Below are positions 1,796-56,313 of a DNA stretch of 64,000 bases, piece after piece (within the stretch, counting starts at the first letter, position 1; every line of letters begins with the position of its first letter). The position numbers and the translations under genes were made by a program. The stretch comes from Antedon mediterranea. Its lineage: Eukaryota; Animalia; Echinodermata. The stretch is taken from contig NC_092676.1 of NCBI RefSeq assembly GCF_964355755.1, positions 2,547,788 to 2,611,787 of the forward strand, read 5' to 3'. The notes below the pieces were generated by a model, which did not search any database, had not been told where the DNA came from, and saw only the letters and a program-made list of their open reading frames with translations.

Positions 1796-1813
1796 TGTAT
1801 TTTAGATCCTGTA
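1796..1813 (+). CDS. Candidate 18-nt microexon (CILDPV if phase 0)
   Basis: ctcctctctctgtgtgttccgtacag|TGTATTTTAGATCCTGTA|gtatga; a 15-nt variant with a gtagta donor is also possible. Confidence 0.35.
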
Positions 1814-1940
1814 GTATGACTACGTTTTTGTTAAACTATAGTTTTGTAGTTCAGTATTCTGAACTCAATACTGTTCTTGTCTGTTTTTAATTTTATAGAA
1901 TTTATAGAATAGCAATAGAAAGCATCCAATTGTTTTATTT

Positions 1941-2195
1941 ATTTGTTGGTGCCAATAAATTGTTTGTTTGTTGGTGCCAATAAATTGTTTGTTTGTTGGT
2001 GCCAATAAATTGTTTGTTTGTTGGTGCCAATAAATTGTTTTTTTGTTGGTGCCAATAAATTGTTTGTTTGTTGGTACCAATAAATTGTTTGTTTGTTGGT
2101 GCCGTTAAATTGTTTGTTTGTTGGTGCCGTTAAATTGTTTTTTGTTGGTGCCGATAAATTGTTTGTTTGTTGGTGCCGTTAAATTGTTCGTTTGC
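1941..2195. repeat. 25-bp minisatellite (TTGGTGCCAATAAATTGTTTGTTTG), about 10 copies
   Basis: Units at 1946, 1971, 1996, 2021, 2046, 2071, 2096, 2121 and onward. Confidence 0.95.
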
Positions 2196-2482
2196 ATGCA
2201 TCATACTGTAGTGTCATTGTCTGTCGCCCTCATTTTGTTTTTATCATATCATTCGCTTACCTTCTGTAGTCATTACTTCTTTTCTGTCATTCTAATCATA
2301 GTTATCATAATATTTCAATTATCTTGTTTTTAATCTTTCAATTATTATTTGAATTAAATGTTTCTAAATTGATAATTTAACACAAATTATTTATGAAATC
2401 AGAAATACATCAATTAATGCTTATCCCAATTATTTATATCCATATTAATATTTACTTACATTACACTGTATCGCCCTCTAAG

Positions 2483-2545
2483 GTTAAACTCGTACGAACT
2501 CAAAAGGATGCTTCCGAGTTTCGCACTAGGTCCGTGCAGGCCTAT
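2483..2545 (+). CDS. PPFIBP1: Liprin-beta probable coiled-coil exon (VKLVRTQKDASEFRTRSVQAY), phase 0-0
   Basis: aag|GTTAAA...GCCTAT|gtaagt; 63 nt, open, more GC-rich than its flanks; phase matches the next exon. Confidence 0.6.
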
Positions 2546-5500
2546 GTAAGTTGCGTTCTTAGGTGGATTGTTCAGTAGCGTGTGATGTGCCTGCCATATA
2601 CCTCTTCTGAAAGTTATTTTAGAAAGTGCTATGTCATTCAAAAATAATTTTTCCATGTGAACAGATGTTTACATTTGGAGTGGAAATTTACTGTGTGAAC
2701 ACACATTTAAAATGAATTTTTTTTTAAAGGATGCTTTTTTAAAATTTGAACAATATAGTGCTTTCTATAAATAGCAACTTGCTTTTTGCTACATGCTATT
2801 TGGAGGCAGGCTCTTTGGGGAAAATATCGAAATAGCACAATTTCATCACAGATTTCGTTTTAAATGTACAAGTTCGCAAGAGCCTGCCCCCCCCTTGATT
2901 TTCTCCTTCCTCTGCTTGTCACGGATTTAAGCTATGCTACAATATCACATTGCATTTGTGAATCAGATATTTGTCATTAGTTACATTACACTCGCAACAT
3001 TTCATCTTATAAGTTAATATCAATCAAAAGTATTTTCTTCTTCTGTGGTATGACAGATATAATGGATGTGTGTATTGAACTTCCACTAATAATTATTAGA
3101 ATCACGTTTATTTACACATTGAATAAAGTAATAAACTTATTTCTATTTACCAACCCTCTACTCCTTATTATTTGAATGTCAACATAAACTGCATGGTTTG
3201 AGATTTTTATATATATTTTTTATTTTGCATAATTATTTTATTTATATGAACAAGCTTGCTTTGCATTTATGATATTTTTTATTTTTTATAATTAAATTTA
3301 TTTTCTCACCGTATAAAGTATTTTGATGTTTGTTTAAATTTATTTATTAATTTTCGTAAACCAACATAAAATAAAATTTGACAATTTACACATTTACAGG
3401 AGTGAATTTATTTACCAAAATCCATACCATAAAATATATTAGGATAATAATAAATATGAAATTCATAATCTATAATTATGAATGAACTAAAAATAGTAAT
3501 TTAAATTTTAAATGATTATTAATCTGTATCAGTCGTTAAAGAAGCCAATCATGAAGCAACAACAAAGTGGAAAATATTTAATGATGACGTTTTAGTATCC
3601 ATTGACGTTAGTGAGTGGGAGTCCATATCCAGTGACGTTTATTATTAATTTTTAATATTTTCAATTAACAAATATATTTACTTCAATGCAACAGATGTTT
3701 TCTTTAATTTTTCACTGTGTTTTAAAGCATTTCCATTTTGGCAAACTGTTTGTGAATTTGTCTACACTATCAAACTTTATGTGACAAAAATATGTGATGT
3801 GCTCAAATTTGAAAATGATGATGTCATATCACTACCATATTTGAGCACATCACACTAGTGTGATAGTTAGCTTTACTGTATTGGATATACAGTTGAACTC
3901 TTATTAAGAGATGCCCTTGGGACGTCCCAAATACCTATTATTGGAGGTATAAACCTCGTCAACACTGTTGTTAGTAAAATTAAACTTATCATTAAAAAAA
4001 AAAATATGCATGTTGTTAGAGCTCTGAATAAAGTCTGTTTTTCACTAAAATATTAAATAATTTTGAAATCAATTTATTGGTGTATTTGTTATTATAATAT
4101 CAAATAATTTAATTTACTAATTATCTTTGAAATATTTTTTTGATTGACGTTAATTTATTAGATATTTTTATTTACTAATTTTTAATAATATTTTATTCCA
4201 TGTTTATTTAATTATTTTGACATTTTTGATATCTTATTTCTTCCATAGAATGAAATTAAAAATTTGGAAGCAAAATTGAATGGGCTCAGAGATACAGGTA
4301 AAATTAGACACAAAGAGTACTAAAAAAAGAACAGTTGTGGATTTTGTTTAACCATATTAGTAAAATATGGTATATTAACTGAAATTTAATTAAAAATATG
4401 TTTAGTATAATTTAATAACCAAGGGATGTTTTGTTATTACTAATATTGATGATGAAACTATGTAATTACCTTCTGGTTTATAAAAATTTAGATACGGAGG
4501 CAATTAAATTGAAAAAAGCAGTTGAGTCGTTGATGTCTGCCAATGAGGAGAAGGTAGGTTTCCTTAAGTCATGTCTACACTATCAAACTAGTTTGACAAA
4601 AAAAGTGTTATGTGCCCAAATATGGCAGTGATATGACATCATCATGTCCATATATGGGCACATCACATGTTTTTGTCGCATAAAGTTTGATAGTGTAGAC
4701 AGAGCTTTGGAAATGGTTCAGATGAAATAAATGATAGGTGATGGTAAAGGTGGTGTCTTTGGCTCTTGCGTTGATGGGGAGGTTGCATTTGGAGACAATT
4801 CGTTTGTTTATTACTAAAATATGAACTGAAATCAAGGTTATGTATGTATAATCATAACATTACAGTCAGGTCACAACTATTATCCATTTATTTGGTCCTT
4901 AAAGAATCCTAATAGGTGTCCTACTGTTTTTTATGGAGATTTGACCAACTAACACCTGTTTGGTCTTCCTTGCCGTTTATGTCTCTGTTTAAATGTATTT
5001 ACCAGAAATTGAATAAATAATGACAAGCAAATTAAACTTTTTTTTCCAACCTAGGAGATGAAAATTGAGGAGCTTCGGCAAAGCATCAATTCTTACAAGC
5101 GCATTCAACAAGAAATGGTGCTAACAACACAGGGTAGTCAAAAGGGACTGGACTTGCAAGAGGAGGAAGAACTGCAACTGGACAGCAGTCCATCGGTCAG
5201 CTCAGCAGGCAATTTAGACCAAGATGAAACCATCAGGGACCAGGTAACATTGTTGGTAATCAATTAATTAGGGAGTGAATTTTTTTATTTACTAAAGCAG
5301 TTTATTTTGTGCTGGGCTTACCTGAATAAACCAACATAGATCTTCTCCACTCCAGTGGAAAACAGTATTATTTTCTAACATGGTTGTTAATTTTACCTTT
5401 TCAGGAGCGGCATCAAGCCACGCTACACATCAACCTCGCTGGACCAAGCGCTACATCAACACCAATCAACGCACCAATACCGCCCCCAGTCTCTGACGAT

Positions 5501-8500
5501 GGTCTGCTTCGGCCACGAACTCTGGATATTATTAGTCAAGAAGAGGAGTACGGTCAGCAAGTACGATCCTCTAGCATGGACAATATGAAAAGACCTCATC
5601 ATCTATCAAATAATGTAGGTGTATTTACGGATGATAGTGTCGGTTCTTATATTGAAATTTTTTTTTGATAACTAGCTTCATTTTAGCATATACCTTTTCA
5701 TTTCTTATATGAGAAATGAAATTCGAATTATCAAAAACTGCTGTGATATGTATTTGTAACATGTTGATAATACATGTTTGTCAAGTGTATAGGACACAGG
5801 ATCAAAGTGGGTTAACTGGTGACTCGTTTAGGGGTTGAAGGGTACACAAGTAGACCATACACATTAAGAGACAAAGGATACAATAAATGTTATCACCTAA
5901 TTTTTAAAAATATACATATTTTCTTATGCTAAAATTAGAGGATTGAGAGGGCCTCAGTAGAGGGGGAGGGGGGAGTGGTGAACTTATGACTTAGTTAGGG
6001 ATTGAAAGGTACATAAATCCATATAGTAGACTAAGGATTATTTATACTTTTTATTTGAATCGGTTTTTTACTATTGTGAAAATAGTATTCAGCAGCTGGA
6101 GTCTATAGCACACTGCCCTCACCAAAGACACGTAACTTTCTGGACGTCCATCATTCTGAACCAACGACACCAGAGAGGATGAAGAGAAACAAAACCAGGG
6201 TCTCCTTCGGAAAAGGAATCTTTAAGCGAAACACCAACAAGATGCAGAGCGCCCCCAATCTGAGTAAGTTCAAATTAATTTATTTAATAATTTTCTTTCT
6301 AACCTTATGATACTATTAATGCAGGGTTCTCAAAACCAAACTTTTGCTGGTTGCTTACAAGCTCCTCAAGCTGCTAAAAAGATCTAAAAATGTTTAGGTA
6401 GCAATAACTAGGAGGTTGAGGAGTTAGGTATCCTAAAAATAGACCAGACAGATATTAGCCTATTGTCAAATAACTTGGAGTTTATTTACTGCCCTCTATA
6501 AAAAACAAACAAGAACTTTCTTAGTTTATTTGCTGCCCTCTACATATGAAATGGAACAGACTTAAAAAAAGAAATTTTTTTTTAAAATTTATTTATTTTT
6601 TATTTGAAATGAAACAGACTTGCTTAGTTGACTTTTAGCAGACAAATTAGTACATTTTACTGAGTACAGCTGAGTAGAAGAAGTTCTATACATTCTATCC
6701 GTAATTTTCCTTAACAAACCTATTTTGCTTATCATTGTGTTTTGCCCTAATATATTGTTCGTATGATTAAGATCATTTCTAATTAGTCACTGATTCCTGA
6801 GGCCATATTAATTAGTCTATTTTAGTGAAGAATACATTCAACATTTATAATAATTAGTACGCTGAAAGGTTTACTAGTTATGTCATTGTTACCATGGTGA
6901 TATAACATCAGTTTTTTTTAGTACTAATTACATTTATCTAATAAATCATTATTTGCATTTTATAATCATAACATGTCAACCAATTAAATACAAAAAGCTT
7001 TAATAAAACAATCTTTAATAACACTATTTATCTGTTGTTTTCCTACCAAATAAGGTCATGTATACTTTTCATCATATAAGCAATTGTTTTAGAAGATTTT
7101 TACCAATAATTGGATCTAGCATTTCCGAAACGTGTCGGCATTAACATTTAGAACATTCTGTTTGACGATTACCTTGTGGTGTTTTTATTGATTTCAAATT
7201 TTGTTGGTATCATTTTGAGACACGACCTTAGCGTGTATCCTTCTTAATTAAAATTAAACAAAACATTGACATTTAGGATGTTTTGTACAGAGCCTTCAAT
7301 TTTCGTATTTACATAAAACTGAACGTTTAATACTGTATTCATCTTTTTAGATTAATTTTCTTAATGTTTAGCATTCATGAATGTTTTCATTCTAAAGATT
7401 AATTTTGATTAAATTACAAGAACATGTTATTAGTGGCAATATTTCCATTTATGTCATTTGCATATAAATACAATATATATATATATAGAAATCGTGTGTT
7501 CCTCTCAAATTCAAATTCAACAAACATTTATTTCATCAAATGCCATACAAATATTACAGAGCATAAACTGAAGACCAACCTAAAAGTAAACTTGTCTCAG
7601 TTGGCCCTTAAAAAAATAATAAGAACAAGTGAGATACAAATAGATAGAATAAAAACCTGGCAAAGATAAATTCTCCTAAAAAAACAATTAATACAAAGTC
7701 ACATAATTCTTGTGTTGTTGTAATGTACCCCAATAGTAATATAGTTTCATACTGTACATTCTAAAAGTTGTGAGGTAATTTCCCGATAGATCGTAATCAA
7801 AACGGTACTGGGTTTGTCTACTAGCATTCCTGCTCCCAACCAGTAAATCCATTCATAGAAGCCTTTATGAAGTAAAGCCTACCTGGTGGTGGCCATAGAA
7901 CGGTCCCGAGATAACGACTATATTTCGGCTTTTAGTCGATAGAAGTTTGAAAAAATTGTTAGAGATAAAGTATACAATGTTTGATTATGTGTAGATGTGT
8001 GATTTGTTCTTTTATTTAAATTATGTTCTGCATAAGGAAACATAGTTTAGTTTTTAAATACTGCTTAAATCAGTGATTCAACTAAATTGCTAGATACAAT
8101 GTTTACATTTATGAATTTAATATTTATTTATTCCTTTCTAATGTTTCTATAAATATGTGCATTAATACCAATTAGATAATTAAATAATTGATGGAATTTT
8201 CATGATATAATAATATGAATTCCATATTTATTTATTCGTTTTAAATGTTTTCCTAATTATTTAATTTCATTCATAAATGTGAATTTGTATAACCCCTTGG
8301 ATCAAACATAATTTGATCTGCGGAATGTTTGTTCCATATTTATTTATTCATTTTAAATGTTTTCCTAATTTTTTAAGTTCATTCATAAATGTTAATTTTT
8401 TTTTTGGATCAAACATAATTTAATCTCCGGAATATTTATTCCATATTTATTATTTATTCCTTTGAGTTGCATTATGTATGTATTATTTTTTGAAAGGTCA

Positions 8501-29500: not shown

Positions 29501-32500
29501 TCATTTAGGCATGCTACAATAATGTTCTATGTCTGCGTCACTTAACATGTAATCGTCTTTCTCTCTTCCTTTACCACCTCTCACGTGTTGTATGTGCGTG
29601 CTCATCTTTTTGCGTGTTCTTTGCGTGCTTCTCTATCTAGGCACGTGCAATCAGCAGCCACCTGGGACGGGAAATACGATTTCACGCTGAGCGATTTCTC
29701 AAAAGTCGGGCCGTGGCTTCGTAGATTGGAACTAAAACAGTAGGTTTAGTCAGGCATGTGTTTTCTTCAGCACATACGTTTTAAATATTATATCTGCATT
29801 GCTTTATATGCACTCATGTTATTGTTACTGTATAGCGTTTTTTAATTGCCATGTTGATTTCTTTATTTATTAGTGAGATTGTTATGTTTGAGTGCATGAT
29901 CACACTTGTTATTTAAAATATACTGTACTAGACTTTTTAGATGATAAAATTATGCTCTAGTTAGTAACAATTTACTAAAATAATAATGATTATAATAACA
30001 ACCTACATTGTCATCATTCCTCATCTTTATTATCATCATCATTATCATCTTATTATTATCATCATCATCGTTATCATCATCACTATCGTTATCAGCATCA
30101 TCATTGTCATCATTGTCATCATCATTATTATCATCATTATTATCGTCATTATTATCATCATTGTCATGATCATTATTATCATCATTGTCATCATCATTAT
30201 TATAATTATTATACAAAGATAATCATAATATCATAAACAGTACATACAAAATATTAATATTATGTATTCTTTATCAATAAGTATTTTTATTCAAAATTTA
30301 TAATTAATTTATAATAATTTTACAATATGCAAGAAAAAATTGAAAAGAGCATTGTTAAGCTTTTGTATTTCTGGTCTTATATAATATTTAATAATAATTA
30401 TTTAATAATGCTTGTTAGAATAAAAATCAAAAGGTATAATATGCGTTTGAAAAAGATCAAATATCGCTCTAGCCAACTATATATTGTTTAAATAGCGTTA
30501 TAAATATTACCAGATATTATACCGACGACAGTTGAAATATTTATACCGTGAACGTGAACGATTCCTTCATCCTCGTTTATTGATCTCTAATCAGTCCTAC
30601 GCAAGATTCCAGAAATCCAGGCCAGTGTTAATTTCTAGAATTTTAACTGGTCTGATTTTTTGATTTTTTTTAATGAATTTTCAAAAACACTTAATATATT
30701 ATGATATATATTATATTATGTTTGTCCTGGTATTAATTAGATATGAGGTACTAGTTTTTTTAATATCATTTTCAAATTTAGAAGATTTATATTTCATTAA
30801 AAAAAAAGATTTTCAAGTTGTCCAGAAATGTTAAATTACATTTAGAGGTGGTCAAACAATATTCAGATGCTAGTAGTATTATTATTATTAATCATTATTT
30901 ATAAAGTGCTTTTCCAGAAGATCAAAGCGCCGTACAGAGAGATTATTTAAAAAAATAAAATAAAAAGTTAGATGTGTTAATGTGGGACTGTTTGCTAGTG
31001 GGATGCGGTGGGAAATCGGGTCATATGATGATTGCAATGCCACCTCTAATACGTAATACTGTATTAAAACAACTAAACTAACTACGCTTTGAGTTCTTGC
31101 GCTGTGTTGACAGCGTCAGGAATTGCCACCTGTTATAACACAAAGCCTAAAAGCCTAACTAAAATGAAATAGCTTTAAAATTAACTAATCAATATTCAAA
31201 TTTATTCGTACTATATTTTATATATAAAATGTATTGGCTTAACGGATGAGTAATAATTTGCATGTTAATGTGTATTTGGGTTTTATTATTCAAATTTTGT
31301 TGGATTTCCTACATTTTCCCCGCTCCTTGTGTGTATATCCTTGATCAGTCATCACATGTGTCTATATCTATTCACATCATCTTCATACATTATCCCAATT
31401 TCTGTGATTTATTTACTTGATTCTCGGGCCTGTATCTCATATATGACAATATTTGCCCAGTATCATAGGAAAATTCCATAATACAGCATCTCATGTATGT
31501 CACATGTTGTACCTGTATCATATAAAGTTAGTTTAAGGGTTAGTTTATGATAATAGGTGATTTATGTCAAACATATGTGATACTATATTATGGAATTTGT
31601 CATGATACTGTAGAAATCTAGATACAGTACCGAAAAACATGTGTTTTTATTACCTATACTTTTCCTTAATTTATTTAATTTTCAGACTCCTGTTTTAGTT
31701 TCAGTTCATTTGTTTTTATAACTTTCATCAAATGTTATTATATATTATTATTTTTCACTTTTTAACTGTTTACATTTTCACTTTATAAGTTAGAGTTGAC
31801 TATTTTATATATATATTCTTCACTTTGTATGTGTTTTATGTTGTTTCTTTACTCTTTGTTTTAAAGGCCAGGTGCGGGCAAAAAATTTCTATTGATCATA
31901 CATTCCAATAATTATCGATCTATATTTTCCCCTATGTTTCATAATTTTTGGGATTTTATTTGTGTTACACGAGCTTGTTGAAAATAAGCACTTTCTTATC
32001 AGTGGGGGGATAGTTCAAATTACACAGTAAAATCTCTATTCTTTTGTACACAAATTTTGTAAATAGAGAGGCATTTTAAAAAGCTATGAAAAATTAACGG
32101 TGTCATAAAAAATGTTCAGATGACTAAATATAGGTAATATAACTTGAATTTTACATTTCTGGTATTTTTATTCAACTTCAGATTTTTATTTTCATGCTAT
32201 AGCAAAAATTATCCACCGTATATCCACCATCTTTTTTCACCTTCTAGGGAGTCACTAGACATGTTATTACATTAGGTTAAACTACCTAAAAAAAGCCTTT
32301 CTGGTTTTTATGGCAGAATTTTGCAAAATTTTGTATTTGACCATATTAAGGGAAATTCATGTTTTTCCGTCTTGATTTCTGTTACAAATATTTGATTTAT
32401 GTACAATTAACCAGATATTATATTTACAATTCATGCCTGTACCTGAGCTTTAAATTCAATTTAAAAAGTATTATAATATTTATTATAAATACTTGATAAC

Positions 32501-35500
32501 TTCTTCAAACACCAATTAGGTAACTACTACTTTAGATCACTTTAATCATGGTGGTATAACCATGCTTCAATCTTTAAAAAATATTACAGCGAAATGGATA
32601 TGAACTCAACCTAATAGCGCAACTAATTTTGTTCTCCATGCAAGTATAGCTTAATTTTGGATCTTACAGTACTAGACATGCAATGAAAAGTTGTAGATGC
32701 AATACAGGCAAGTTGACCAATGACAAGCGACAGTTCTAATAATCCATCGCTTGTGATTGGTCAAATCACTTGCGTTGCATTACATCTTTGTGGGAACCAA
32801 TCATTAATAAGCCTTACCCCTTTAATTTGACCCATTTTTTTTTCGTTTTGGTAATAATATATGTATTTGCTTTTTCAGAGATATTGATATGCCGTTTGCA
32901 AAGTGGGACACGGATCAGGTCGCGGCCTGGCTCCATGAACTTGGTTTATCCCAGTATGTTTCCATGTGTCGAGTGTCTGTCAAGAATGGTGCTACCCTCC
33001 TAGAAGCTTCACCTCAAACATTATACAGCGTGAGTTATCCTATCAAAAGGACATCTTTAACTTATAGTTTGATATATTGTAATATAGTTTTTACTTATTT
33101 GAAATACACCTATCAACTGTAAAGCCTTGTCTACACTATCAAACTAGTTTGACAAAAATATGGTAATGATATGACATCATCATGTCAATATGGGCACATC
33201 ACACTTTTTTCGTCAAACTAGTTTGATCGTGTAGACAGAGCTTTAAACAAAATGTCCTTATTCACATAAATCCCTCAACTCTTGATGAAAATTATCACAT
33301 CAGGTTTGCATTGCCAATAATCAAATAAACTGGTTGAAATTTAATTTCATACAATTTTGTGAAACGGTTCTTTTTTTTCAAATCGTAAAAAATGTTAAAT
33401 CATTTCTTTGTGTTGTGACTAATGCGTTAAATGTCCACACTTATGTCATCAACTAAATCAATAAAATCATAGTAAATTAATAATAACCGTAACTTTCCAT
33501 TTCTAATCCGAGTAAATGGACAAATTTATCTCATTGCATTAAGTGATAAGGTACAGTGATTGATGTGTATTTTATTTATTTGATCTTTCTTAAATATAAT
33601 CTCATAAACTAAAAATTCAAAATGAGTACCATTTAATTTAAAAATCATTCACTCAAAACCTGCCTTCTTGATTTTGCTTTACCTCCATTTGCATTTTGAA
33701 TAAAATATTTCAAACTAATTATTTTGTGTTTAAACATATTGTTTTAAGATTCCTATAGACAGAGCACAATGTTCCAATAGGTGGAAATTAGACAAAAGGT
33801 GTTACATAACACAGACAGACATGCAGAACAATATTATCATCTGCAATCATTTATTTATTTTAAATATAAATGTACTAATTTTGCTCCATTCTTTTGTTAC
33901 TATTTTTCAGGAACTCGGTGTAAAAAACCCTCTTCATCGTAAGAAACTCCTGTTAGCGCTTCAGGCAATCAGCAAAAACGAGAAAGACAAAATGGGTGAA
34001 TTGGACTACACATGGGTGACGAGGTGGCTTGACGATATAGGACTTCCACAGTACAAAGACTCCTTCCACGAAGCCAGAGTAGATGGCAGAATGCTCAATT
34101 TCCTTACAGTGGTAGGTAGTTGGGGGCTTAAATCCCATAATGGAGTTTTCCTCTATACAATCGGCACAGGTTCAAGTCACTCCTCGATCATTATTCTGGT
34201 GGTAGAAAAAGTCTTCTCGGATAATGTCTTAAGAAGGTCCAGTGTACACATCTGGCTTGTGTACACTTTAAAGAACCCAGTCCAGCTTTCGGAATAGTAG
34301 GAGGTTACCCAGGTCCATTCAGCCCCTGTCGTTGTGGACAGACGAACGGGTGCCGCTTGGTGGCAGCACTCGACATGAAGGGACCCTTAGGGGAGTAGAA
34401 AGTTGTGGTATGTGTCGTCCACACCTGTGCGCAATTAAGCCCAGTATGTTGGTTATACCCCCATTACATCAACAAAGAAAAGGAATATAGTGGATAAAAA
34501 TTTATCTCAACATAGAATTTTCTGTAAGAGGAAACATACCACATAAACAGCAAAGCAACGATGTAGGTTTATATACAGTAAAACGTGTCCTACTTCTGTT
34601 AGCCATAAAAGAACTATTATACTACGCATCAAACTGGTATCCAGTGACTAATCATGTATCTTCTGACAATTCTTGGTGTGATTCAAGATAAAACTTTAGT
34701 TTGTGTCATAAAATACAAGAATTGAGACGTGAGAGTTGAAACTGTGGCACAGACAAACAAAAAATAAGTTTTGATAGATATTTTCAATTTGTTTTTGATA
34801 CAACATGCTTAATATCTAATAATAATATTGAATTAAGCTCTGTCTAATGTGTCAAACTAGTTTGACAAAAAAAGTGTAAGGTAGCCAAATATGGTAGTGA
34901 TATGCCCAAATACAGAAGTGATATGACATCATTGTGTCCATATATGGGCACATCACATTTTTTTGTCACATACAGTTTGATAGTGTGGACAGAGCTTTAT
35001 AATAACATTGAATTAGAATGTGCGTACTTGTTGACGAAGAAGTGCTCAAGGCGCTTAAAACAAAAACAAATTTAAAATTGTCAACCATTCGTCTTCAGTA
35101 CATCTCGATCTCACATCCTACCTCCAAATATTAACAAGAAAAATGTCCCAACAAACAAACCTTAAAGTATGTTTTAAATGTTTTTTCCTTAAAAGTAAAA
35201 AACAAAAACATAATTAAGCAAGACATACTTTGTATAGACGTCATACCTTTGTATGAACCTAGTTTAAGAAAATGTAATTTACACAATGTCTTTCTATGAC
35301 GCGCATTCAGGCTAGAAAAGCGTCACACATCTCGGCAAAAAGCAAAAACCATTTATAAGCTTAGGTATGCTTCTTTTTAAATCCAAATGATTATCTGTTT
35401 TCTCACCTTGCCTGAAAAAAATCTATTTTTTTTGTAATAATTTGAATACATAGAAAAATTATAATTATCCTTAAAATCACTTGTTAAATTTCTCAAAACC

Positions 35501-38500
35501 AATTCAATGATTTTCCTCGTCAATCTCAGTTAATTATGTTTTTGTTGAAATACGTTTAAAGGGAAAAAAGAAAGTACAACACAATCAATTTATGTAAGTG
35601 GCAATTTTCCCAGTTTATACAAAAGTACAACAGGACTTGAGGTCAAGGGTCGTTTTAAATAAGGTCAACTTGTATTACATGAGGTCGGAGGATCATGGTA
35701 AACAGTCAAATCTTGTGACTTTTGGTTTATAAACTTCAAGAAAATACTGAATTTTAATTGTGCTCTGATTATGAAATTATCTGTTTTGGTGATCTTGTTC
35801 TACTTCATTCTGCGCATTTTTAACAAATATTGTTTTAAATTTGTTAATAATTATTATTCTGTAACACTAACACACTTTCTTCTAAAACGTAAACAAAATG
35901 TAATTCTCCGAACTCTACTTAAAGTTGTTTTTTACCTTGAAATTCATAATTAAGATTTGAATTTACCAAAATTATAAATTTAAATTGTCTTTCCATGAAA
36001 TCTAAATTGAAATGCATTGTTAATTAATAGCGTTATGTACTTTTTTTTAAGGATGATCTGTTATCATTGAAAGTAACAAGCGCCTTACACCACATCAGTA
36101 TCATGCGTGGTATACAATGTCTAAGACTCAATCATTTTAATCCTAATTGTCTCCGGCGGAGACCCACTGACGAGGTAAATATGCGTATTTTATTATTTTA
36201 TATTTAGATTTTCATTAAAATGTTCAAGGTAAGATGTAATATGATGTCAGCGTCTTGTTTATTTTTAACGATGTTAAATGGCTAACTAATTATAATTGTG
36301 TTTTGTTTTCATTTAGCCTTATTTATATTCATCCCTTCATTCGTTACACGTATACATAATCATTTTTAAAATCAATTCCTGTATCATATAACTACTACCC
36401 CTAAAACAAATAAATCTAGTACTAATCACAAAATTATTAATTGTTAATAGTTATTTAAAGATGTATTGTCTCCCAAAAACATGAATTAAGATTATTAAAA
36501 TCATACTTTGAATAGGCCATTTTGTATTTATGATAAATTTTTTCACTTTAGAAAAAAAAAAAAAAAACTCATTGTCTGACATCACCATGTTTGAAGTGTT
36601 TGAAAATGTTAGTGTGAGAAATCATACCAATCAGTGATGCTTGATTTTACTATATATAGTTGACTAACCAATCGCCTGATCATATTCCTATCTACCAATT
36701 TTTCTAACAGTTTGTTATAATATATGTAGTTGTTAGTTCTAGTATTTTATTGTTTTTTTATACAGAATGATAAATATATATTTTATACATTAATCTTATT
36801 TAAAGCTTCCGTTTGGTTTTAATTGGTTATTTGTTTTTTTAAATAAAAAAAAAGAATATTTTTTGTTTTCTATTAACATATATAATTTACTTTAAATGTA
36901 GGTGTGGCCTATTATGATGGAGGTAGGTTTAAAGGAAGTTGATTGGTTGATTGGTTGCACATCAATGACTTTAACGCTGCACGGGGACAAATGATTGGTT
37001 GAAATGTTGCCAATGCCATTTTCATTTTTAAACTTTTATTTCTGTTGCAGGCATGATCATTTTTTTTAATGCAGCGCATAAAATAATTGTTTTATCTTTT
37101 TTTTTTTTTATCATAAAATGTTAAGGTTTTTTTCATTTTGGCGCAGATTTTTTATTTGTTCTTGTAAACATTTTGATATGAATTACAACTTTCATGAAAG
37201 GACAGAAACTTGGAAATATACTTACACTTTTCACTAATTTAAAATGGGTGATGTTATAGTTATTACCATCTTTTCAATACATAACCAATCACATTATTTA
37301 AGAACTAATGATTTACACATTTTATGTTTTAAATCAACAAATTTTGATTTTTTTTAAATTTATTTTAATAACATAAGATGATCAACATCAAGGAATTGTT
37401 ATGGGTACAAATTACACATTAATTTTAGTTTGGTGACTTGCTTGTAACTTTTAACCAATCACATCTCTAACAATATCAAGGATTTATTAACCAATCACTG
37501 AATGCTTACAGCTGACCAATCAGAGGTGTCAGATAATGTTGGCCAATCATATAACAGCATGATTTTCACAGCCAAGATTTGATCATTATGCAATGTTGAC
37601 TAAAAACTAATTGTATTTAATTTAGGATCTTCTTTTGCTGGTAATGAAATAAGTTTACTACACATTTTGTTAAAACGTTTAAGAACAATTTTAAGATGTT
37701 AACAGTTGCAATACAAAGATATAAAATATGTTTTTTTTTAAATTTAGATTTCATAAAAATTAGTATTAGAAATTATGATGTAATTTAGTTATTATCTGAT
37801 CTATTAAAGATGTATTTTTTATGTTAGATTTTCTACATAGGATTAGAAACTTAGTAGTATGAAATACCAGGGGCCGGATTTATCTACCAAGACAATTTTT
37901 CTGCTAAAACTGTTTTATAAATAAGTTATTTGCTTAAATATATCAGCTGAAGACAAAATATAAGCAGCTATTGATAAATGCCACCCCAGTATTATACTGA
38001 CTGCAGTTGCATTTTTCACCCACAGACAAAGCAGGAAAAAATCTCCAGTGTACCAACTTGGAGTTCGCAACTGGTAAACAATAAAACTCCATGATTCATA
38101 AATACTCCATACTACCTGCTTTCATTGTTAAATAAGCTCCATGGTTTCTTCGTTTCATAGCCTTAAAACTGTTTTCAACATGGGTGCAAGAACATTCCCA
38201 AAGAAAAATCATGTTTCTTATCCTTGTCTACACTATCAAACTTTTTGTGACAAAATGTGCCCATATATGGATAGAATGATGTAATATCACTACCAAATTT
38301 GAGCACATCACTACCATATTTAAGCACATCACACTTTTATCAGTTTGATAGTGTAGACAAAGCTTAATAGAACAGCGTACAGCCCCACTCAGTGTTACTT
38401 CATCACTATGACGATAAGCAATATTGCACCTATATTGAAAACATATAAGTTATTGGTTAGAAGAAATCATAAACAGGCTTATAGCATGAATGGTACAATA

Positions 38501-41500
38501 GATTATATATTCTTCCATTGCATGTTGGGTTGATGGTTCTTTTTGTGATTAGCTTTCATGACTTTTTTAGACTCTTTAGAAGCGTGGTGAATTCATTTCC
38601 GATTTTTTTCTCTTATCCAGTAAGATTGGAGTTTTTCCACTGTAATTGACAAAATTGAGCTAAAACGTTATCATTTTCTTCCGTCAAGTTATTTCCAAAA
38701 GTATGTCTTACATCGTCTCTCGTTTCATCCCTCCACTCACTTACTTATTTTTTCCACTTATTTTTTTCACTTATTTTTTTCCCTCACTCTTTGTCAAATA
38801 TCTGAACTATTTATATCTTCGCTTCAAATTTTAATTAAATTACCATTTTACAAATTAATATCTAAAGAATAATGAATATTTTAAATTATATTGTATAATT
38901 TTCAATTCCATTTAGTCTGATGAGTGGAGCAATTATATTTATTATCTTTCGTAATAAGTACATAATTTATTGGAGACATAAAATACAATTTGCCTTTTGG
39001 CATTTCTGCGACAGGCTAAGCATGATGAGCTATCTAAAGACAAAAGATATTAGTGATGTGTTGAAGTTTTTCTAAAATAGGATGCCTGTGGCAACCTCAA
39101 ACGACGTTTGTCATATGCATATTGAAAACCGTATTTTCCTTTTTTTAAATGTTCTACCTTTTCTTGTCCAGGGAAGACAGAAATGGTGATGCACATGCAT
39201 GCTTAATACAGGTGTTTATTTAGATTTTACATACATATTAGCATCATGCAGTTAGATATGCAAATAAGGTATTTTATGCTAATTATCAAAATATACATAA
39301 AGGTTTTATACACATATGTAAATTAGACTTTACATACATATTAACATCATGCAGTTAGATATGCAAATGAAGTATTTTATGCTAATTATCATAATATACA
39401 TACAGGTGTTTATTCACATTCAAATTAGATTTTACATACATATTAGCATCTTGCAGTTAGATATGCAAATGAGGTATTTATGCTAATTATCTTAATATGC
39501 ATACAAGTGTTTATTCACATATTCAAATTAAATTTTACATACAAATTAGCATCTTGCAGTTAAATATGCAAATGAGGTCTATATTTAGACTAGCATACAT
39601 AACAGGTAAATAAGAATGTTTTAGGGGATAGTAAGTTGTTACAATATGCAAATTAAGTTTGGAATTTTAATTAAGCTTTATATGAAGGGTTCTATAAGGC
39701 AAGTGTTGCATGTTTTATGGCATTCAAGGTGTGTCATTTGCTATCTTTACAATCTATACAGTATTACATTTTAGCTTTAGTTAGGTAGAGTAGTGTATAG
39801 TAGAAGCCCTTTTAAGGAAACTCTTTCAAGTCCCAAGAAAGACTCCCCTGAATTGGTCCCCTTGTTTCATAACAAAGTGTCTCCTTGATAGATGTAAATC
39901 AGAGGATGGGTTTCTTCTTTCCGATTCTTCTATTCCTGGTTATTAAACCATACTTTTCTACACTTTAGTGTCTTATCAAAGTAGACTACATATACTTGAT
40001 TAATTAATTAATTTGCAAACGTGTCCGATTATAATTTTTTTACCAAAAGGAAAGAAAGTTGTTATTATATTCATTCTTTAATTTACATTTTTTGGCCTTA
40101 AAACGTAAAAATGCGTGTTAAAGTTCATTCCTTCCACAAATGTGATTGTTTTCTACATGTTACTCAATGCATGCACTTTTTCTTTTCTTTTTCTTGCATT
40201 GTGGCATTTTACTATATGTTACATTTGTCAATTGTAAACATTGATACAAATATAAAGGGAACCAGACAAATTGATCTAGGGGAAAGATTTTCTAATATTC
40301 AAATAATTATAAACTTTAATTAATTGTAATAATTGTTTTTCTTTTCTGATTATTTGAATGAATGAATTATCTGTTTTTAAAAAAAACCACACAAAGATGT
40401 TTTATAATTTTTATTAATATCTTAAGAAAAACAACTTTATGGATAGTGTTGACAAAGTATTTTTACTTGAATATTTCAGCCATATGAAAGTGGAGCAGAG
40501 GTCATGTTATGGTCAAATCATCGAGTCATGGAATGGCTGAGGTCGGTAGATTTGGCGGAGTATGCCCCCAACTTACGAGGCAGTGGGGTTCATGGTGCTT
40601 TAATGGTAATGTTGCAGATATTGCATTTAGTTTACTTAATTTTATCAAAAGATGTGTGTGGAACCTAATGATACAAGCTTGGTGGTATTGCGGTATGATG
40701 GAAGAGTCTTACCAAATAACCACTAGCCAAGTGAAGATAATCTCAATAGTGTAGTAAAAAGAGGGTGTGGATTGATGCCTCTTTAAAAAAAAAAAACAAA
40801 AAACCTCTAGCAAACCCGGGAGTTTACACTCTCAGACTGTCAACAGCAGACACCATTGCACTTTCCCAAACGAGTGGCTGTATTTACCATTCACACTTAA
40901 GGGAAACACTTACTCTAAAAACTAAAAAAATCTCCTATCTTAGTAAATACAATTTAAGAGAAATACTAAAATATGTATTGAGTTAAGTGAAATACTTAAT
41001 ATTCAAGGGAAATATTTCACTTAAGTGTGAATGGTGAATACGGCCACAGACCACACTATACTTTTTCCCAAACCAGACCCCATTGTACTTGCCTGATTTT
41101 CACGGAGTTTGGCTTTGTGAGAGTAAACTGTATAAACTAAAACACCAATCGTAACATTTTTTTCAGGTATTGGAGCCACGTTTCTTGGCGGACACATTAG
41201 CAGCGTTGCTTTGTATTCCTCCTACCAAGACTCTATTACGTCGTCATCTCAATACGCACTTTGTTTCATTGGTCACGTCAGAGTGTCAAGCCGAGAAACG
41301 AGAAATTGAAAGGTTACCTACATTTGTGCCGTTAAATTCACTTGCCAAAATTAAGGTACGCACATTTCTTGTTTTTTATACATGATTAAAATCTGAGCAC
41401 TCAAATTTAAAAACTTTAAAGGTGTGATGTGCCCAAATATGGTAGTGATATGTTTAAATATAGTAGTGATATGACATCATCATGTCCATATATGGGCACA

Positions 41501-44500
41501 TCACATTTTTTGTCACATAAAGTTTGATAGTGTAGACAGAGCTTTAGATGTTTTTAATAATTGGCTATCAATTGATGTATGTTGTGGTAACTTATTGTTT
41601 TACTGCAATATAGTCCAATCCAAGCTTTATAAGTACAGTTGTAATAAAAAGTTTAAATAACAATTTACCATTTCATTATGGTTGTGAATAAAAACCTTAA
41701 GCTAACACGGATTGAGAACAAATTATCCCGAAAAACTTGTGAATAACCAATATTTTTACTTTTTGAAATCAGCCAAAGAAAAGAGCATTTACTCGTAAGA
41801 AGCGTGGAGGTGAAGACGAAGATTACTTGTGCCCGTTTGACACGCCGCTACCTAGTTCAATGAAACTTGATGGCGTTATTAATGGCGCAAGCACGACAAA
41901 TAAAGTACCAAGCTATCTGACGGAAGTCCGCAGCACGGACATGGTCCATAAGCAACGAGATGAAATTAATCAGGTGTGTGATTGAAATGCGGAACGATTA
42001 CTGTTAGGATTTTTTTTTTTTCAAAAGTGCTTGGAATATTTCATTTCAAGATGTTTATACTCAGCTAAATGCAACCAAATAAACTTGGAGAATGGCTACG
42101 TTGGTTATCATGCCAAGTATTGCAAAAAGAAATTGATAGTATCATATCATTATCATGAATGACTTAATTAAGTATACTCTTAAGACATGCTACCAATTTT
42201 TCGGTTAAAATAACACACGATGGGACTAAACAGAAAGTCTTTGATACAATTTATAAACTAATTCCAACCAAATTTATGTCCCAAAACCATTGTTTTTTTA
42301 CGAAGCTGCCCAGAGTGTGAAAGATCAGATTTATTTAGTTCATTGTTCAATTTTGAAACTACTACAATTTTTTCCAATTTTTTTATAAAAAAGGTCAATA
42401 CATCTCTTTTGCTCAGTTTTATAACAGCATTTTCCTACCTCTTCCAGTTTTCTAATTTGTATTGTTTCCCCTATTGTTCCCCTGTTGTCTTTAAATCATT
42501 CAAACCACTTTCCTTTTGACAGAAATCAAATCATTGTGATTGTAAATAATTCATAATTTCTTTGTTTTTTTAACATTGGTGAATTGTCAGTGTTTATTCC
42601 CAAATTCTGTTTATCATAATTTATACTATATTTATCTTAATAACAAATCAAAATTCTTATATCAAATATATTATTTCATATTCATTTCATTGCAACATAC
42701 CATTGAATGTTGTATCATTATTCTTGCTATAATATCTTGAAACTTAATATATGCAAGTTCATTCTGTGTATATTAGCATAATAACCATTAATGATGCCAA
42801 ACATCTGGAGTCTTCACAAAGAATAATGCTTCTTCTATTATGCTATGTTCAGATTCTCATATTTTAATTGACTTAAAATTATGACTTGTGATTGGGCGTT
42901 AACAGAATCTAAGTCTGTATTTGATCATGAGGGCAGTATTTAGGTCTGTAGTATGAGCATTGAGCTGGTCCTAAACGCTATATCAAACTTTATGCGACAA
43001 AAAAATGTGATGATCCCGTATATGGACATGATGATGTCTTATTACTACCATATATTGGCACATCACACTTTTTTTGTCAAAATAGTTTGATAGTGTAGAC
43101 AGAGCTTTATAGATGAAGTATAGTTAATAGGTGGTAGTTGCTTTGCCACTGAGCCATAGTGTTCATATAGAGTTTTGGTTCGATTTTTTTCACCTTTTTC
43201 AGAGATATTAAGCCTTTAATCCTGTCAGATAAATTGTTAAAAATAATAAAGTAAAAATTATTTAGTGAAAATGTAATTATTTGACAAATGAATTGTGCAA
43301 ATTATTATTTATTTATTATTTTATTTTGTTTTTTTTTTAGTAGTAGCCTTAAATTGGTTATCTTTGTTTAACCATATTTATTCATTTTCTGCTCATATTT
43401 AGTTGTGATATTGCCATATTTAGTCATGATCTGCCCATATTTGGTCATGATCTACCATATTTAGTTATAATCAGCCCATATTTAGTCATGATCTGTCCAT
43501 ATTTAGTCATGATCTGCCCATATTTAGTCATGATCTGCCCATATTTAGTCATGATCTACCATATTTAGTTGTGATATTGCCATATTTAGTCATGATCTGC
43601 CCATATTTAGTCATGATCTACCATATTTAGTTATAATCAGCCCATATTTAGTCATGATCTGTCCATATTTAGTCATGATCTGCCCATATTTAGTCATGAT
43701 CTACCATATTTAGTTATAATCTGCCCATATTTAGTCATGAGCTGTCCATATTTAGTCATGATCTGCCCATATTTAGTCATGATCTGCCCATATTTAGTCA
43801 TGATCTACCATATTTAGTTGTGATATTGCCATATTTAGTCATGATCTGCCCATATTTAGTCATGATCTACCATATTTAGTTATAATCAGCCCATATTTAG
43901 TCATGATCTGTCCATATTTAGTCATGATCTGCCCATATTTAATTCAATCACAATTTGTTGGCCAAATATTCTGTGATAATCTGAACATAGCTGTACATAA
44001 ATAAATAATCGCAAACCGATACATGAATGTGACGCTTGTATGTATGCCTGTTAGCCTCTTGCATGGTTTATTCCGCTTCTCTAGGCCGAAGATAACCGTC
44101 GGAAACCAACACGTGTGCAGAGTCTGTACACACGGCGCGACGTGTACAATCCACGTGTATACGTCCATCCCAGAAGCGCTGTCATAACAAAGGTATAGGT
44201 GAATGTGGCACTGGTGTTTATCTCAATCGAACCAAACGGTTCGCATTTGAGACAATTGCTTTAGCTGGGACTGCACCGTGCGTCACTGCGCTTCATGTTA
44301 TGCAAATAACGAGGTTATGTGTTCGTGGTATTGACCTTTTAACTGCCAGAATTTTAATATTAACAAGTTTGCCCTCCACCTTGAGGTACAGTACAAGTTT
44401 CTCTCCCATACACAATTCTGAATATTCTGATTCCTGACAATAGGTGGCAGTGTTTACTTTGACTGCAAACTCAAAAAGAAATTTGGAAATGTAAAATTGT

Positions 44501-47500
44501 TAAGCCTCAAAAATAAATTTTTCTTAACGTTTAAAAATGGAAATTTTAAAATGCATTTCACGAAAAGTTTTGGCAGTTAAAAGCAATAACTCACATTGTC
44601 CTCATTTTTCACACTTCACTTTACTTTCCTTTAATTTTTGTTTTCTTTTCGTTTATTTTTGTTTTAGGTCATCGTAAGAAATTAAGGAGATTGTTTATTA
44701 TGCTTTGTGTGTGTGAAATGTGTTTTTTATTTATTCTCTTTTTCTTTTGAATGTAAAACAAGTTTACAAAAATGATTTGATCTTCTCAAGTTTTCAAAAT
44801 CCTTTTAAAAACAAAAACCCACCTTTTTACTTTATAACCGAATTTAAATCTCCTTTCATTTCCAAGCATTTCGAACAATCTGGTGATTGTTAAAAACACT
44901 ATATAAATGTAACAATAATACATTATGAACAAGAAGGGCACTCAGAGAGCGCAAGCCCCCGCCTTGGCATGGCATGTGTGCCGTACAGCTATGAAACCAT
45001 CCTTCAAAATCTTATGAATATCGGGAAAAAACTTTGTTAGTAATCCTGCTAACTAACAAATATACAAACATACAAACAAATAAACAAACAAACACACGCA
45101 CACTTCTATCTGTGGTAAAAATGTTTGACTTGTTTTACATTCAATAGAAAACGATGATTTGTAGTGTTAACAGTATCAACATTGTCGAAACATGCAAATT
45201 AACGATTAATTGTTATTTCTAGCATTTGCCGTATGTTGTACAAAGGTTCTTGCTTTGTTCATAAGACAAAGAAAAAACAAATATTCTTAATAATCTAAAA
45301 TTTCTTTTCGTATCATTATTTTCTTTTTGTTATGAATTCATCTTCATTTTCTTTTTGCATGATGAGTGATTTGCTGCTCTTTTGTGCTTATTTGCATATG
45401 GATAGGTACTCATTTGCATATGGCCAGGTGTTCATCTCTAAATCTACGTTCATTGATCATGTAGACTAGCCTCATAGATTAGTTATTAACTTTTTCTTTC
45501 CTTAATACTGATATTTCATTTTGAAATAAAATTTGTCATCAGTTGATTGTTCATTAGCCCAAATCTTAAATCTTTCTTTTGGATACCTTTCATTGTTCAA
45601 GTCCAAATCACACCTGTATGTAAATTATTCAAAACTAAATATACAATAAATATAATAACAAATATTACAGATAAGTTTTTTTCCTACTACAATATTTTAT
45701 TTTTCATTTGCTTTAAAACACTTTTAAAAAATATAACCGCACTTGTTCACCGAACTAAACTTTTTATATTACATAATAATCATAAATTATAAAATTAAAA
45801 TATAGAATTAAAGATATATAATTCCAATTTGTTTAAAGGCTTTGCTTAAAGTTACACAATTATGTAAATATGAGATTTATTTGGTATGAGAAGAAAAATC
45901 GTGATTTGTATTTAGAGGAAAAGTAAGTGGAAAGAGAGAGATGAGGAGAGAAAAATGGCGCAAGTTGTACTACTCTGCATGTTAAAGTATAAAAAGTATC
46001 GCATATTGTAAATTTCATCAATGCCTATATGTTTTGAGCTTTTTTATTTGTTTTTGTATTTCCTTTCCAGAACCTTTCATACAAATTGATGTATACCAAT
46101 TGTGCTTTGTGTTAGATGATATTTTTGTTGTAGAGCGTATTTTATTTATTTTTTATTATTTTATATTATAAAGTTGGTTATTTTTTTCACAGGATGTTCA
46201 AACACAAAAGCACTCACAAGCTATTGTTTACAGAATCATTCCATGCATATGGTGAATTGCAAAACAAATTAAATAACAATGTTTAATGTTCATTTGAATC
46301 CATGACAGTCTAATGATGTTTTTAAATTTACGATAGAGAAACGTTTTATAAGCATTTGTATTTTTCACTTGTATTTGTTTAAATCGTGAAAAACAACCCT
46401 ATTAGTCAAACTCAAATAAATTAACCTTTTTAATTTATCGGGATTTAACTGGAAGATACATGTCTGATATTTTTTTTAAAAAGGCCAATTTTTCAACTAC
46501 AAAAAAAAAATATTATAGACTGATTCACATTGAACAATAATGTGATGTATTATAAAACGTGTTTGCTGCCCTCAATATCATATATTGTAAATAGAAATGT
46601 ATTTATAGTATTATAAATGGGAACGATAATATTGCTATAATAACAGTATTATTGTTAGTGGTCTCCGAAAATGGATTTTGAATCTGTTTTTCACCATATA
46701 CTTTGAAATTACACAAATTAATGATGGTTCTAAAGAGTAAAGTAGCAAATTAAGTGACCCGGCTTGACAATATTGTGATATGAAACCAGGCCAGTTCACA
46801 AGTGGCCATTATTTGCTCGTCAGTTCTGTCAGGACAATCAAACTCTTTCTCATGTGTTTTATTGCTATCTGTGTATTGATTCAAAAACACATTGACAATA
46901 ATTTGACCATATTATCTTTCTACACGACGACAGTAGACGCACATATGGATGCTGAGAATATGCGTTTTTATTTGATGATATTTATGCCCTCCTTAAATGA
47001 ACGACATTTGGCTTTTTTTTATTGGTTCGTGCCCTTTTGTCAATAATACCGTAATATTGTTGATGACCAACAGCTGTGAGAGAAATAAAAGTATTTCTTA
47101 GTCATTTCTTATCGTAGAAATATTGGTTTATAAACAATGTGATAATAATTCTATTATATCTTTTATTGAAAATTAATTTTTATTCAGATCAGAAAAAATA
47201 AACTAATCAATAAATTATTACTGATTGAGCAATCATTGAGAAACATGATCGATAAATTGATCAATAATCTATATTAATTAATAACCAATCATGGAATATT
47301 GTACCTTGATCGAAACCAATTATTAAGCAACGCGATGGATACATTTATCAATAATCTATACTGAGTGACCAAGTATTATCATTGTTATTAATGAATATCG
47401 ATATCTATTTCTGGTCATTAAGCGATATAATGATAATTTTACCATTGATTTATTTGATATCCTATTCTACCAATATATTGTTATTTTGATAAGTTACATC

Positions 47501-56174: not shown

Positions 56175-56313
56175 AGCTCTGTCTACACTATCAACTTTAT
56201 GCAACAAAAAATATGAAGTACCCATAATGTAGACACGATGATGTCATATCACCACTATATTTGGGCACATCACACTTTTGTTGTCAAACTAGTTGGATAG
56301 TGTAGACAGAGCT
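56175..56313. mobile_element. MITE family A, copy
   Basis: Both TIRs present. Confidence 0.85.

What the first reader, a model, noticed from the sequence alone, without database searches (positions are those of the whole stretch)
1796..44673. Hidden battery of frame-preserving cassette exons/microexons: a possible combinatorial splicing code in an invertebrate liprin-beta
Seen: seven short segments (18, 9, 99, 21, 48, 108, 6 nt) bounded by AG/GT, each a multiple of 3 and stop-free in the phase imposed by the flanking liprin exons (phases 0, 1, 2, 0, 0, 0, 0). They fall in linkers or the tail rather than inside SAM cores. Known: neural microexon programs (SRRM4/eMIC domain, RBFOX, Nova) are bilaterian-wide and target synaptic scaffolds. 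Inference: this gene yields many tissue-specific isoforms through exons an automated annotation would likely miss. Short AG..GT pairs also arise by chance in AT-rich introns, so the 9- and 18-nt calls are weak.
Basis: partly seen in the sequence, partly recalled or inferred. Interest (0 to 1): 0.8.

Follow-up and report, generated by a model that had tools for sequence, protein, structure and literature searches.

The report
Feather-star liprin-beta optional exons
Four of the seven proposed exons in this feather-star scaffold gene are already in the public annotation as optional exons and three tiny ones have no support, while one optional 16-residue loop is shared with starfish, sea urchins, a sea cucumber and probably an acorn worm, where it likely switches a binding surface on and off.

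Summary
The window holds liprin-beta of the crinoid Antedon mediterranea (every exon matches RefSeq XP_071954628-46). All seven segments exist with AG/GT ends and keep the frame, but 1,216 such pairs lie in the same five introns, so that alone is no evidence. Four (99, 21, 48, 108 nt) are real cassettes: RefSeq includes and skips them here and in the crinoid Anneissia. They are not hidden. The 18-, 9- and 6-nt calls are in none of 297 proteins; shuffled introns match their splice-site score in 100, 45 and 9 of 100 trials. One RNA run showed the 108-nt exon joined straight to the last exon, no 6-nt junction, and an unannotated donor at 46251. The new point is depth: the 48-nt SAM2-SAM3 loop with an invariant Trp occurs in 12 of 15 ambulacrarian species, both forms in 8, and in no named chordate annotation except one unrelated-looking frog model. 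Neural (eMIC) control is untested; the one real microexon lacks the UGC mark. Verdict: ordinary conserved cassette splicing with one interesting ancient loop.

The parts
1796..1813 (+). Proposed 18-nt microexon (6 aa with Pro); probably chance
   Evidence: Score 4.0, rank 6 of 44 in its intron part, 100/100 shuffles equal or better; in 0 of 297 proteins; would fall in helix 113-332
2483..2545 (+).
   Evidence: Skipped in RefSeq X5; homologous 21-aa cassette included and skipped in Acanthaster, Lytechinus, Strongylocentrotus
4249..6263 (+). Five constitutive exons (4249-4297, 4492-4553, 5055-5243, 5405-5614, 6086-6263)
   Evidence: Exact match to RefSeq X1
20649..20657 (+). Proposed 9-nt microexon, phase 1 (my placement); unproven
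   Evidence: Score 14.3, rank 2 of 282, 45/100 shuffles equal or better, 2 better on the reverse strand; in 0 of 297 proteins; sits at the protein position of an 11-aa vertebrate cassette
25860..26808 (+). Two constitutive exons (25860-26013, 26677-26808)
   Evidence: Exact match to RefSeq X1
29641..29739 (+). 99-nt cassette exon just before SAM1; crinoid-only among fetched proteins
   Evidence: Skipped in X10, X12 and Anneissia X6; 30 of 33 aa identical; 130-nt AG-free zone, 2 UGC near the acceptor, TGCATG downstream
32879..36174 (+). Constitutive SAM1 and SAM2 exons (32879-33029, 33911-34111, 36052-36174)
   Evidence: RefSeq match; aligned to 3TAD chain C
36902..36922 (+). 21-nt microexon (VWPIMME) in the SAM2-SAM3 linker; crinoid-only among fetched proteins
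   Evidence: Skipped in X2, X7, X12 and Anneissia X2, X4; 7 of 7 aa identical
38026..38073 (+). 48-nt cassette exon in the SAM2-SAM3 linker with invariant Trp; ambulacrarian-wide
   Evidence: Skipped in X4, X7, X12; homologous cassette in 12 of 15 ambulacrarian species, both forms in 8
40480..41973 (+). Constitutive SAM3 and tail exons (40480-40605, 41167-41355, 41773-41973)
   Evidence: RefSeq match
44085..44192 (+). 108-nt cassette exon in the disordered tail; crinoid-only among fetched proteins
   Evidence: Skipped in X11, X13 and Anneissia X7, X9; 33 of 36 aa identical; junctions 41973>44085 and 44192>51931 in RNA run X1
44668..44673 (+). Proposed 6-nt microexon; unproven, best of the three
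   Evidence: Score 14.1, rank 1 of 46, 9/100 shuffles equal or better, 82-nt AG-free zone, 26 of 30 pyrimidines; in 0 of 297 proteins; no junction among the listed loose ends of one run
46193..46251 (+). Unannotated donor at 46251 spliced to the last exon; acceptor not shown (46193 scores best and would give a 59-nt exon ending the protein at the last junction)
   Evidence: One X1 contig, 45969-46251 plus 29 letters of the last exon, depth 11; scores
47721..47810 (+).
   Evidence: Skipped in X8, X13 and Anneissia X5, X9; skipping junction in X1; aligned in all deuterostome rows
51931..51981 (+). Last coding exon, ends in -T-N-V
   Evidence: RefSeq match

Best explanation
This is the crinoid liprin-beta gene with six annotated frame-preserving cassette exons in the window (63, 99, 21, 48, 108, 90 nt), which likely add or remove short binding modules around an unchanged three-SAM core, while the 18-, 9- and 6-nt calls are probably chance AG..GT pairs. 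Shown: exon boundaries, inclusion and skipping in annotations of two crinoids, three junctions in one RNA run, and conservation. Predicted: the SAM cores stay folded with the inserts, which are low-confidence loops; the 63-nt exon removes three whole heptads. Inferred: the Trp-bearing SAM2-SAM3 loop is a splice-switched docking motif kept since the echinoderm-hemichordate ancestor, to which crinoids added a second Trp microexon; ordinary tissue splicing factors set the inclusion. Partner, tissue and regulator are not shown.
For: Joined window exons equal RefSeq X1 residues 253-end. 13 other isoforms differ by whole exons; Anneissia skips the same five cassettes. Cassette identity 30/33, 7/7, 7/16, 33/36, 27/30 against 679/764 overall. 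SAM2-SAM3 linker is 10 aa in 243 of 288 matched proteins; 44 of the 45 longer ones are ambulacrarian; W28 invariant in 7 of 7 aligned cassettes. Folds: inserts pLDDT under 50 in X1; in a starfish fragment SAM blocks score 85-94, the insert about 52 with a short helix. Chance tests. Precedent: a two-exon Trp insertion between SAMs of liprin-alpha2 binds CASK (PMC8044993).
Against: RefSeq isoforms are automatic models; I could not see their read support, and distant cassettes are not phased. Only 7 of 16 residues of the 48-nt cassette are kept between the two crinoids, and the Glandiceps insert (15 aa) shares little beyond position and Trp. 3 of 15 ambulacrarian species (Diadema setosum, Saccoglossus, Ptychodera; 1-2 records each) show no cassette. 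The 6-nt call beats 91 of 100 shuffles, and very short exons are often absent from annotation (own knowledge), so it may be real.
Confidence: 0.72

Rival explanations
1. The cassettes form a neural microexon programme run by SRRM4/eMIC with RBFOX or Nova.
For: One real 21-nt microexon. The 99-nt exon has a long AG-free zone, UGC near the acceptor and a downstream TGCATG; the 48-nt exon has one UGC; these are features of eMIC targets (PMC8797185). UGC within 20 nt in 2 of 6 alternative against 1 of 13 constitutive exons.
Against: No UGC within 20 nt for the 21-, 18-, 9- or 6-nt segments; five of six real cassettes exceed 30 nt; TGCATG occurs 18 times in 52 kb anyway. The studied cassette of human PPFIBP1 answers to MBNL, TDP-43 and ESRP, in cornea, muscle and epithelial lines.
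Confidence: 0.2
2. The 6-nt and perhaps the 9-nt segments are real unannotated microexons.
For: 6 nt: rank 1 of 46, 9/100 shuffles, most pyrimidine-rich acceptor of all exons tested. 9 nt: strong donor, and a vertebrate 11-aa cassette lies at the same protein position. Bilaterian 6- and 9-nt neural microexons exist (10.64898/2026.09.05.749416).
Against: 0 of 297 proteins. Equal or better decoys exist: 36208-36228 scores 18.7 and is in no isoform; a 6-nt pair at 17623 outranks the 9-nt call. My odds: 6 nt 0.3, 9 nt 0.2, 18 nt 0.04.
Confidence: 0.3
3. The cassettes are tolerated splicing noise in disordered linkers without function.
For: They lie in low-confidence regions; the 48-nt cassette diverges fast outside its Trp end.
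Against: 99-, 21- and 108-nt cassettes are as conserved as the rest of the protein; the 48- and 63-nt exons stay optional across echinoderm classes.
Confidence: 0.06

Closest known systems
RefSeq liprin-beta-1-like isoforms X1-X14 of Antedon mediterranea (XP_071954628-46) and X1-X9 of Anneissia japonica
   Same: Same gene; 99, 21, 48, 108 and 90-nt cassettes annotated as included and skipped
   Different: They lack the 18-, 9- and 6-nt calls and the donor at 46251
Liprin-alpha2/3/4 SAM1-SAM2 insertion (VWV motif binding CASK, two exons; PMC8044993 passages)
   Same: Two exons encode a Trp-bearing loop between tandem SAM domains of a liprin
   Different: Here the loop is in liprin-beta, between SAM2 and SAM3, the motifs are VWP and PxWS, and no partner is known
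Human PPFIBP1 exon 19 (33 nt; MBNL, TDP-43, ESRP; PMC13641209, PMC8983780 passages, PMC5703972 supplement rows)
   Same: Regulated frame-preserving cassette in a liprin-beta
   Different: None of the crinoid cassettes resembles it; that it is the 11-aa cassette seen after SAPNL in bird rows is my inference from length, not tested
SRRM3/4-eMIC neural microexon programme (PMC12992808, PMC8797185 passages)
   Same: One 21-nt frame-preserving exon in a synaptic scaffold; eMIC-like acceptor on the 99-nt exon
   Different: Most real cassettes are too long; the microexon lacks the UGC mark; no neural data
Fgfr alternative exon kept across Ambulacraria (PMC5703972 passage)
   Same: Lineage-wide alternative exon shared by echinoderms and hemichordates
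   Different: Other gene and domain; shows that such depth has precedent

Membership tests
Liprin-beta | N-terminal coiled coil plus three tandem SAM domains closest to liprin-beta | tested here: met
   3TAD chain C E 2.4e-101 against 5.8e-41 for liprin-alpha2; Pfam SAM; helix 113-332
Cassette (skipped) exons | Transcripts with and without the exon | tested here: met
   99, 21, 48, 108, 63, 90 nt in RefSeq isoform sets; 108 included and 90 skipped in run X1
Cassette (skipped) exons | Same feature for the 18-, 9- and 6-nt calls | tested here: inconclusive
   0 of 297 proteins; only the 6-nt site was covered by reads, one run of contigs
eMIC-dependent neural microexons | Length 30 nt or less, frame-preserving | tested here: met
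   Only the 21-nt exon among the six real cassettes
eMIC-dependent neural microexons | UGC close to the 3' splice site | tested here: not met
   0 UGC within 20 nt for the 21-, 18-, 9-, 6-nt segments; present only at the 99- and 48-nt exons
eMIC-dependent neural microexons | Long AG exclusion zone and pyrimidine tract | tested here: inconclusive
   21 nt: 45 nt and 17/30, inside the constitutive range 19-85; 6 nt: 82 and 26/30; 99 nt: 130 and 23/30
eMIC-dependent neural microexons | Neural-enriched inclusion that depends on the eMIC factor | not testable with these tools
   No tissue-labelled RNA run was served
Liprin-alpha CASK-binding insertion | Position between SAM1 and SAM2 with a VWV motif | tested here: not met
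   Insert lies between SAM2 and SAM3; motifs VWP, NWF, PWY, PxWS
Liprin-alpha CASK-binding insertion | Binds a partner through the Trp | not tested
   No partner sequence was in hand
Mutually exclusive exon arrays (Dscam type; recalled) | Duplicated exons, one used per transcript | tested here: not met
   X1 holds all cassettes together and they are unrelated in sequence

The most novel reading that the evidence does not exclude
Ambulacrarian liprin-beta carries its own ancient splice-switched Trp docking loop between SAM2 and SAM3, a parallel invention of the vertebrate liprin-alpha/CASK insertion, which crinoids expanded into a four-state switch with a second Trp microexon; an unannotated late exon (donor 46251) would also swap the C-terminal T-x-V end.
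Probability: 0.3. Interest if true: 0.55.

Novelty: new member of a known kind. Interest (0 to 1): 0.24.

Why it matters
As proposed (a hidden code missed by annotation) it does not hold. What remains is a small, testable lead: the SAM2-SAM3 linker of liprin-beta is fixed at 10 residues in most homologues, yet echinoderms and probably hemichordates have kept an optional Trp loop there since their common ancestor (over 500 million years, date recalled). If it recruits a partner, it would show that both liprin branches separately evolved splice-switched inter-SAM docking loops, and give a marker exon for tissue splicing in echinoderms.

Tried and rejected
No whole genome was held, so no intron conservation test. 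Reads were laid only on 44000-47900; the 18-, 9-, 99-, 21- and 48-nt sites were not covered, so their read support stays open. X1 has no cover over the 90-nt exon and no 6-nt junction among 6 listed loose ends (6 rows of that table not shown); contigs drop rare forms, so this is no evidence of absence. The first score matrix had two misplaced boundaries; corrected, where the 9-nt call fell from rank 1 to 2. My own 15-nt candidate 37626-37640 scored 7.4 and was dropped. A profile of the 48-nt cassette against 1.84 billion representatives gave 11 hits and no cassette outside ambulacrarians; amphioxus X48 and Priapulus rows lack it, two Logan fragments and one frog model have unrelated longer linkers that look like read-through; one representative per cluster cannot show absence. 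Pfam found nothing for the 99- and 108-nt peptides. Earlier findings: none. Literature: eight searches listed no paper on echinoderm liprin-beta splicing by title or abstract start; subscription journals are missing. The Esrp supplement has no sea-urchin row under liprin or Ppfibp, but urchin genes may bear other names; the supplements of the 2026 bioRxiv paper, which covers sea-urchin tissues, were not seen and may list these exons. No complex was predicted.
Full report
Identity. The exon at 33911-34111 matched liprin-beta-1-like of Antedon mediterranea at 100 percent, then Anneissia japonica at 88 percent. The cluster holds 14 RefSeq isoforms of Antedon and 8 of Anneissia. Twenty window exons joined by coordinates equal residues 253 to the end of isoform X1, with AG/GT at every intron. 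The SAM region aligns to mouse-type liprin-beta1 in PDB 3TAD chain C far better than to liprin-alpha2.

The observation. All seven segments can be placed with the stated lengths and phases; the 9-nt position is my placement. Being 3n and stop-free carries no weight: 1,216 of 11,042 AG..GT pairs up to 120 nt in five introns pass that rule, 619 of them 27 nt or shorter.

Four are real and not hidden. Anneissia skips the same 99 (96 there), 21, 48, 108 and 90-nt exons; both species have all four combinations of 21/48 and of 108/90. Identity between the crinoids is 30/33, 7/7, 7/16, 33/36 and 27/30, against 679/764 for the shared length. These are automatic models whose read support I could not see. 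Independent reads: run X1, laid on 44000-47900, has loose ends that are letters of neighbouring exons, giving junctions 41973>44085 and 44192>51931, the X8 form; X3-X5 run straight through as DNA.

Three are unsupported. None occurs in 297 fetched proteins. With a matrix trained on this gene's own sites, the best short candidate of a locally shuffled intron reached the real score in 100 of 100 trials for 18 nt, 45 for 9 nt, 9 for 6 nt. The 18-nt call would put six residues with a proline into the predicted helix 113-332, whereas both real coiled-coil cassettes are 21 residues, three heptads (inference). The 6-nt call has the most pyrimidine-rich acceptor tested and remains possible; X1 showed no junction for it, which for contigs is no evidence of absence. 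The 9-nt call lies at the protein position where birds and gar have an 11-residue cassette, a weak point in its favour. A decoy at 36208-36228 scores higher than any of them and is in no isoform.

Depth of conservation. The linker between SAM2 and SAM3 is 10 residues in 243 of 288 matched proteins (9 of 297 did not match the pattern); 44 of the 45 longer ones are ambulacrarian, one is a frog gene model of unrelated sequence. The 16-residue cassette is in records of 12 of 15 ambulacrarian species fetched: two crinoids, four starfish, four urchins, Holothuria and, with 15 residues, the hemichordate Glandiceps; both forms are annotated within 8 species (Antedon, Anneissia, two Asterias, Patiria, Acanthaster, Lytechinus variegatus, Glandiceps). 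Diadema setosum, Saccoglossus and Ptychodera records lack it. One Trp is invariant in 7 of 7 aligned cassettes. Non-crinoid echinoderm cassettes open with a second Trp; in crinoids a Trp at that place comes from the 21-nt microexon. The 63-nt cassette is also optional in Acanthaster, Lytechinus and Strongylocentrotus. The 99-, 21- and 108-nt peptides were found only in the two crinoids. A profile search of 1.84 billion representatives added no cassette outside the group.

Structure. In the X1 model (mean pLDDT 52) the inserts 599-631, 790-812 and 985-1020 are coil under 50. In a starfish fragment with the cassette (pTM 0.64) the SAM blocks score mostly 85-94 and the insert about 52, with a short helix. 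So the core is predicted to tolerate the loop; nothing here shows what the loop binds.

Mechanism. Most likely the cassettes add or remove short linear modules around a fixed SAM module and tune coiled-coil length in whole heptads (inferred). The closest working model is the liprin-alpha2 insertion between SAM1 and SAM2, encoded by two exons, whose VWV motif binds CASK; liprin-beta SAM3 binds liprin-alpha SAM1 (PMC8044993, passages). The present loop fails membership of that class (other protein, other linker, other motif) but may work like it. Neural control is open: eMIC targets have long AG-free zones and UGC near the acceptor (PMC8797185, passages); this fits the 99-nt exon, partly the 48-nt exon, and none of the segments of 30 nt or less. 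The studied human PPFIBP1 cassette, 33 nt, answers to MBNL (PMC13641209, passages), TDP-43 (PMC8983780, passages) and ESRP (PMC5703972, supplement rows), so non-neural regulators are as plausible. The eMIC background is from PMC12992808 (passages) and 10.64898/2026.09.05.749416 (passages; supplements not seen). An Fgfr exon kept alternative across Ambulacraria is a precedent for such depth (PMC5703972, passage).

A by-product. One X1 contig runs 45969-46251 and then into the last exon: a donor in no RefSeq isoform. The best acceptor, 46193, would give a 59-nt exon that stops the protein at the last junction and removes the terminal T-N-V; 46174 would give 78 nt in frame. The contig continues upstream of both, so it may be partly spliced RNA or a cryptic donor. 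T/S-x-V ends are common in the family (SNV 112, TNV 34, THV 26, STV 4 of 297); that they are PDZ ligands is recalled, not tested.

Verdict. Observation partly confirmed, interpretation partly supported. Eight searches (listings only) showed no paper on these exons. Known kind, public annotation, one conserved loop worth a look: interest 0.24.

Noticed in passing
window 45969-46251: RNA contig spliced from an unannotated donor at 46251 to the last exon; a 59-nt exon from 46193 would replace the C-terminal end.
   Followed up: partly
window 2483-2545 and an exon upstream of the window: Two adjacent 21-residue cassettes in the coiled coil (RefSeq X5, X6), each three heptads; the first is also optional in starfish and urchins.
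   Followed up: yes
window 47721-47810: An ancestral exon (GAFSQEINSLT, predicted helix) that is skippable in both crinoids.
   Followed up: partly
window 36208-36228: High-scoring 21-nt in-frame pair only 33 nt after the upstream donor, in no isoform; a useful decoy.
   Followed up: partly
window about 4570-4710, 15060-15170, 17070-17210, 19100-19230, 20760-20970, 33120-33245, 41420-41545, 42970-43110, 56175-56315: A recurring 130-200 bp element with inverted ends (MITE-like), seen by eye in many introns.
   Followed up: no
window about 1930-2190, 24240-24930, 26240-26640, 43370-43940: Minisatellite arrays in introns, seen by eye.
   Followed up: no
window 41773-41973: This exon ends three codons later than its Anneissia counterpart (EINQ against E).
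   Followed up: no
P0298, P0225, P0170: Liprin-beta annotations reach isoform X48 in amphioxus, X26-27 in ostrich and X21 in chicken, so rich splicing is usual for the gene.
   Followed up: no
window 44405-47698: DNA runs X3-X5 show many substitutions and small indels against the window, none listed at the 6-nt site or its splice dinucleotides.
   Followed up: no
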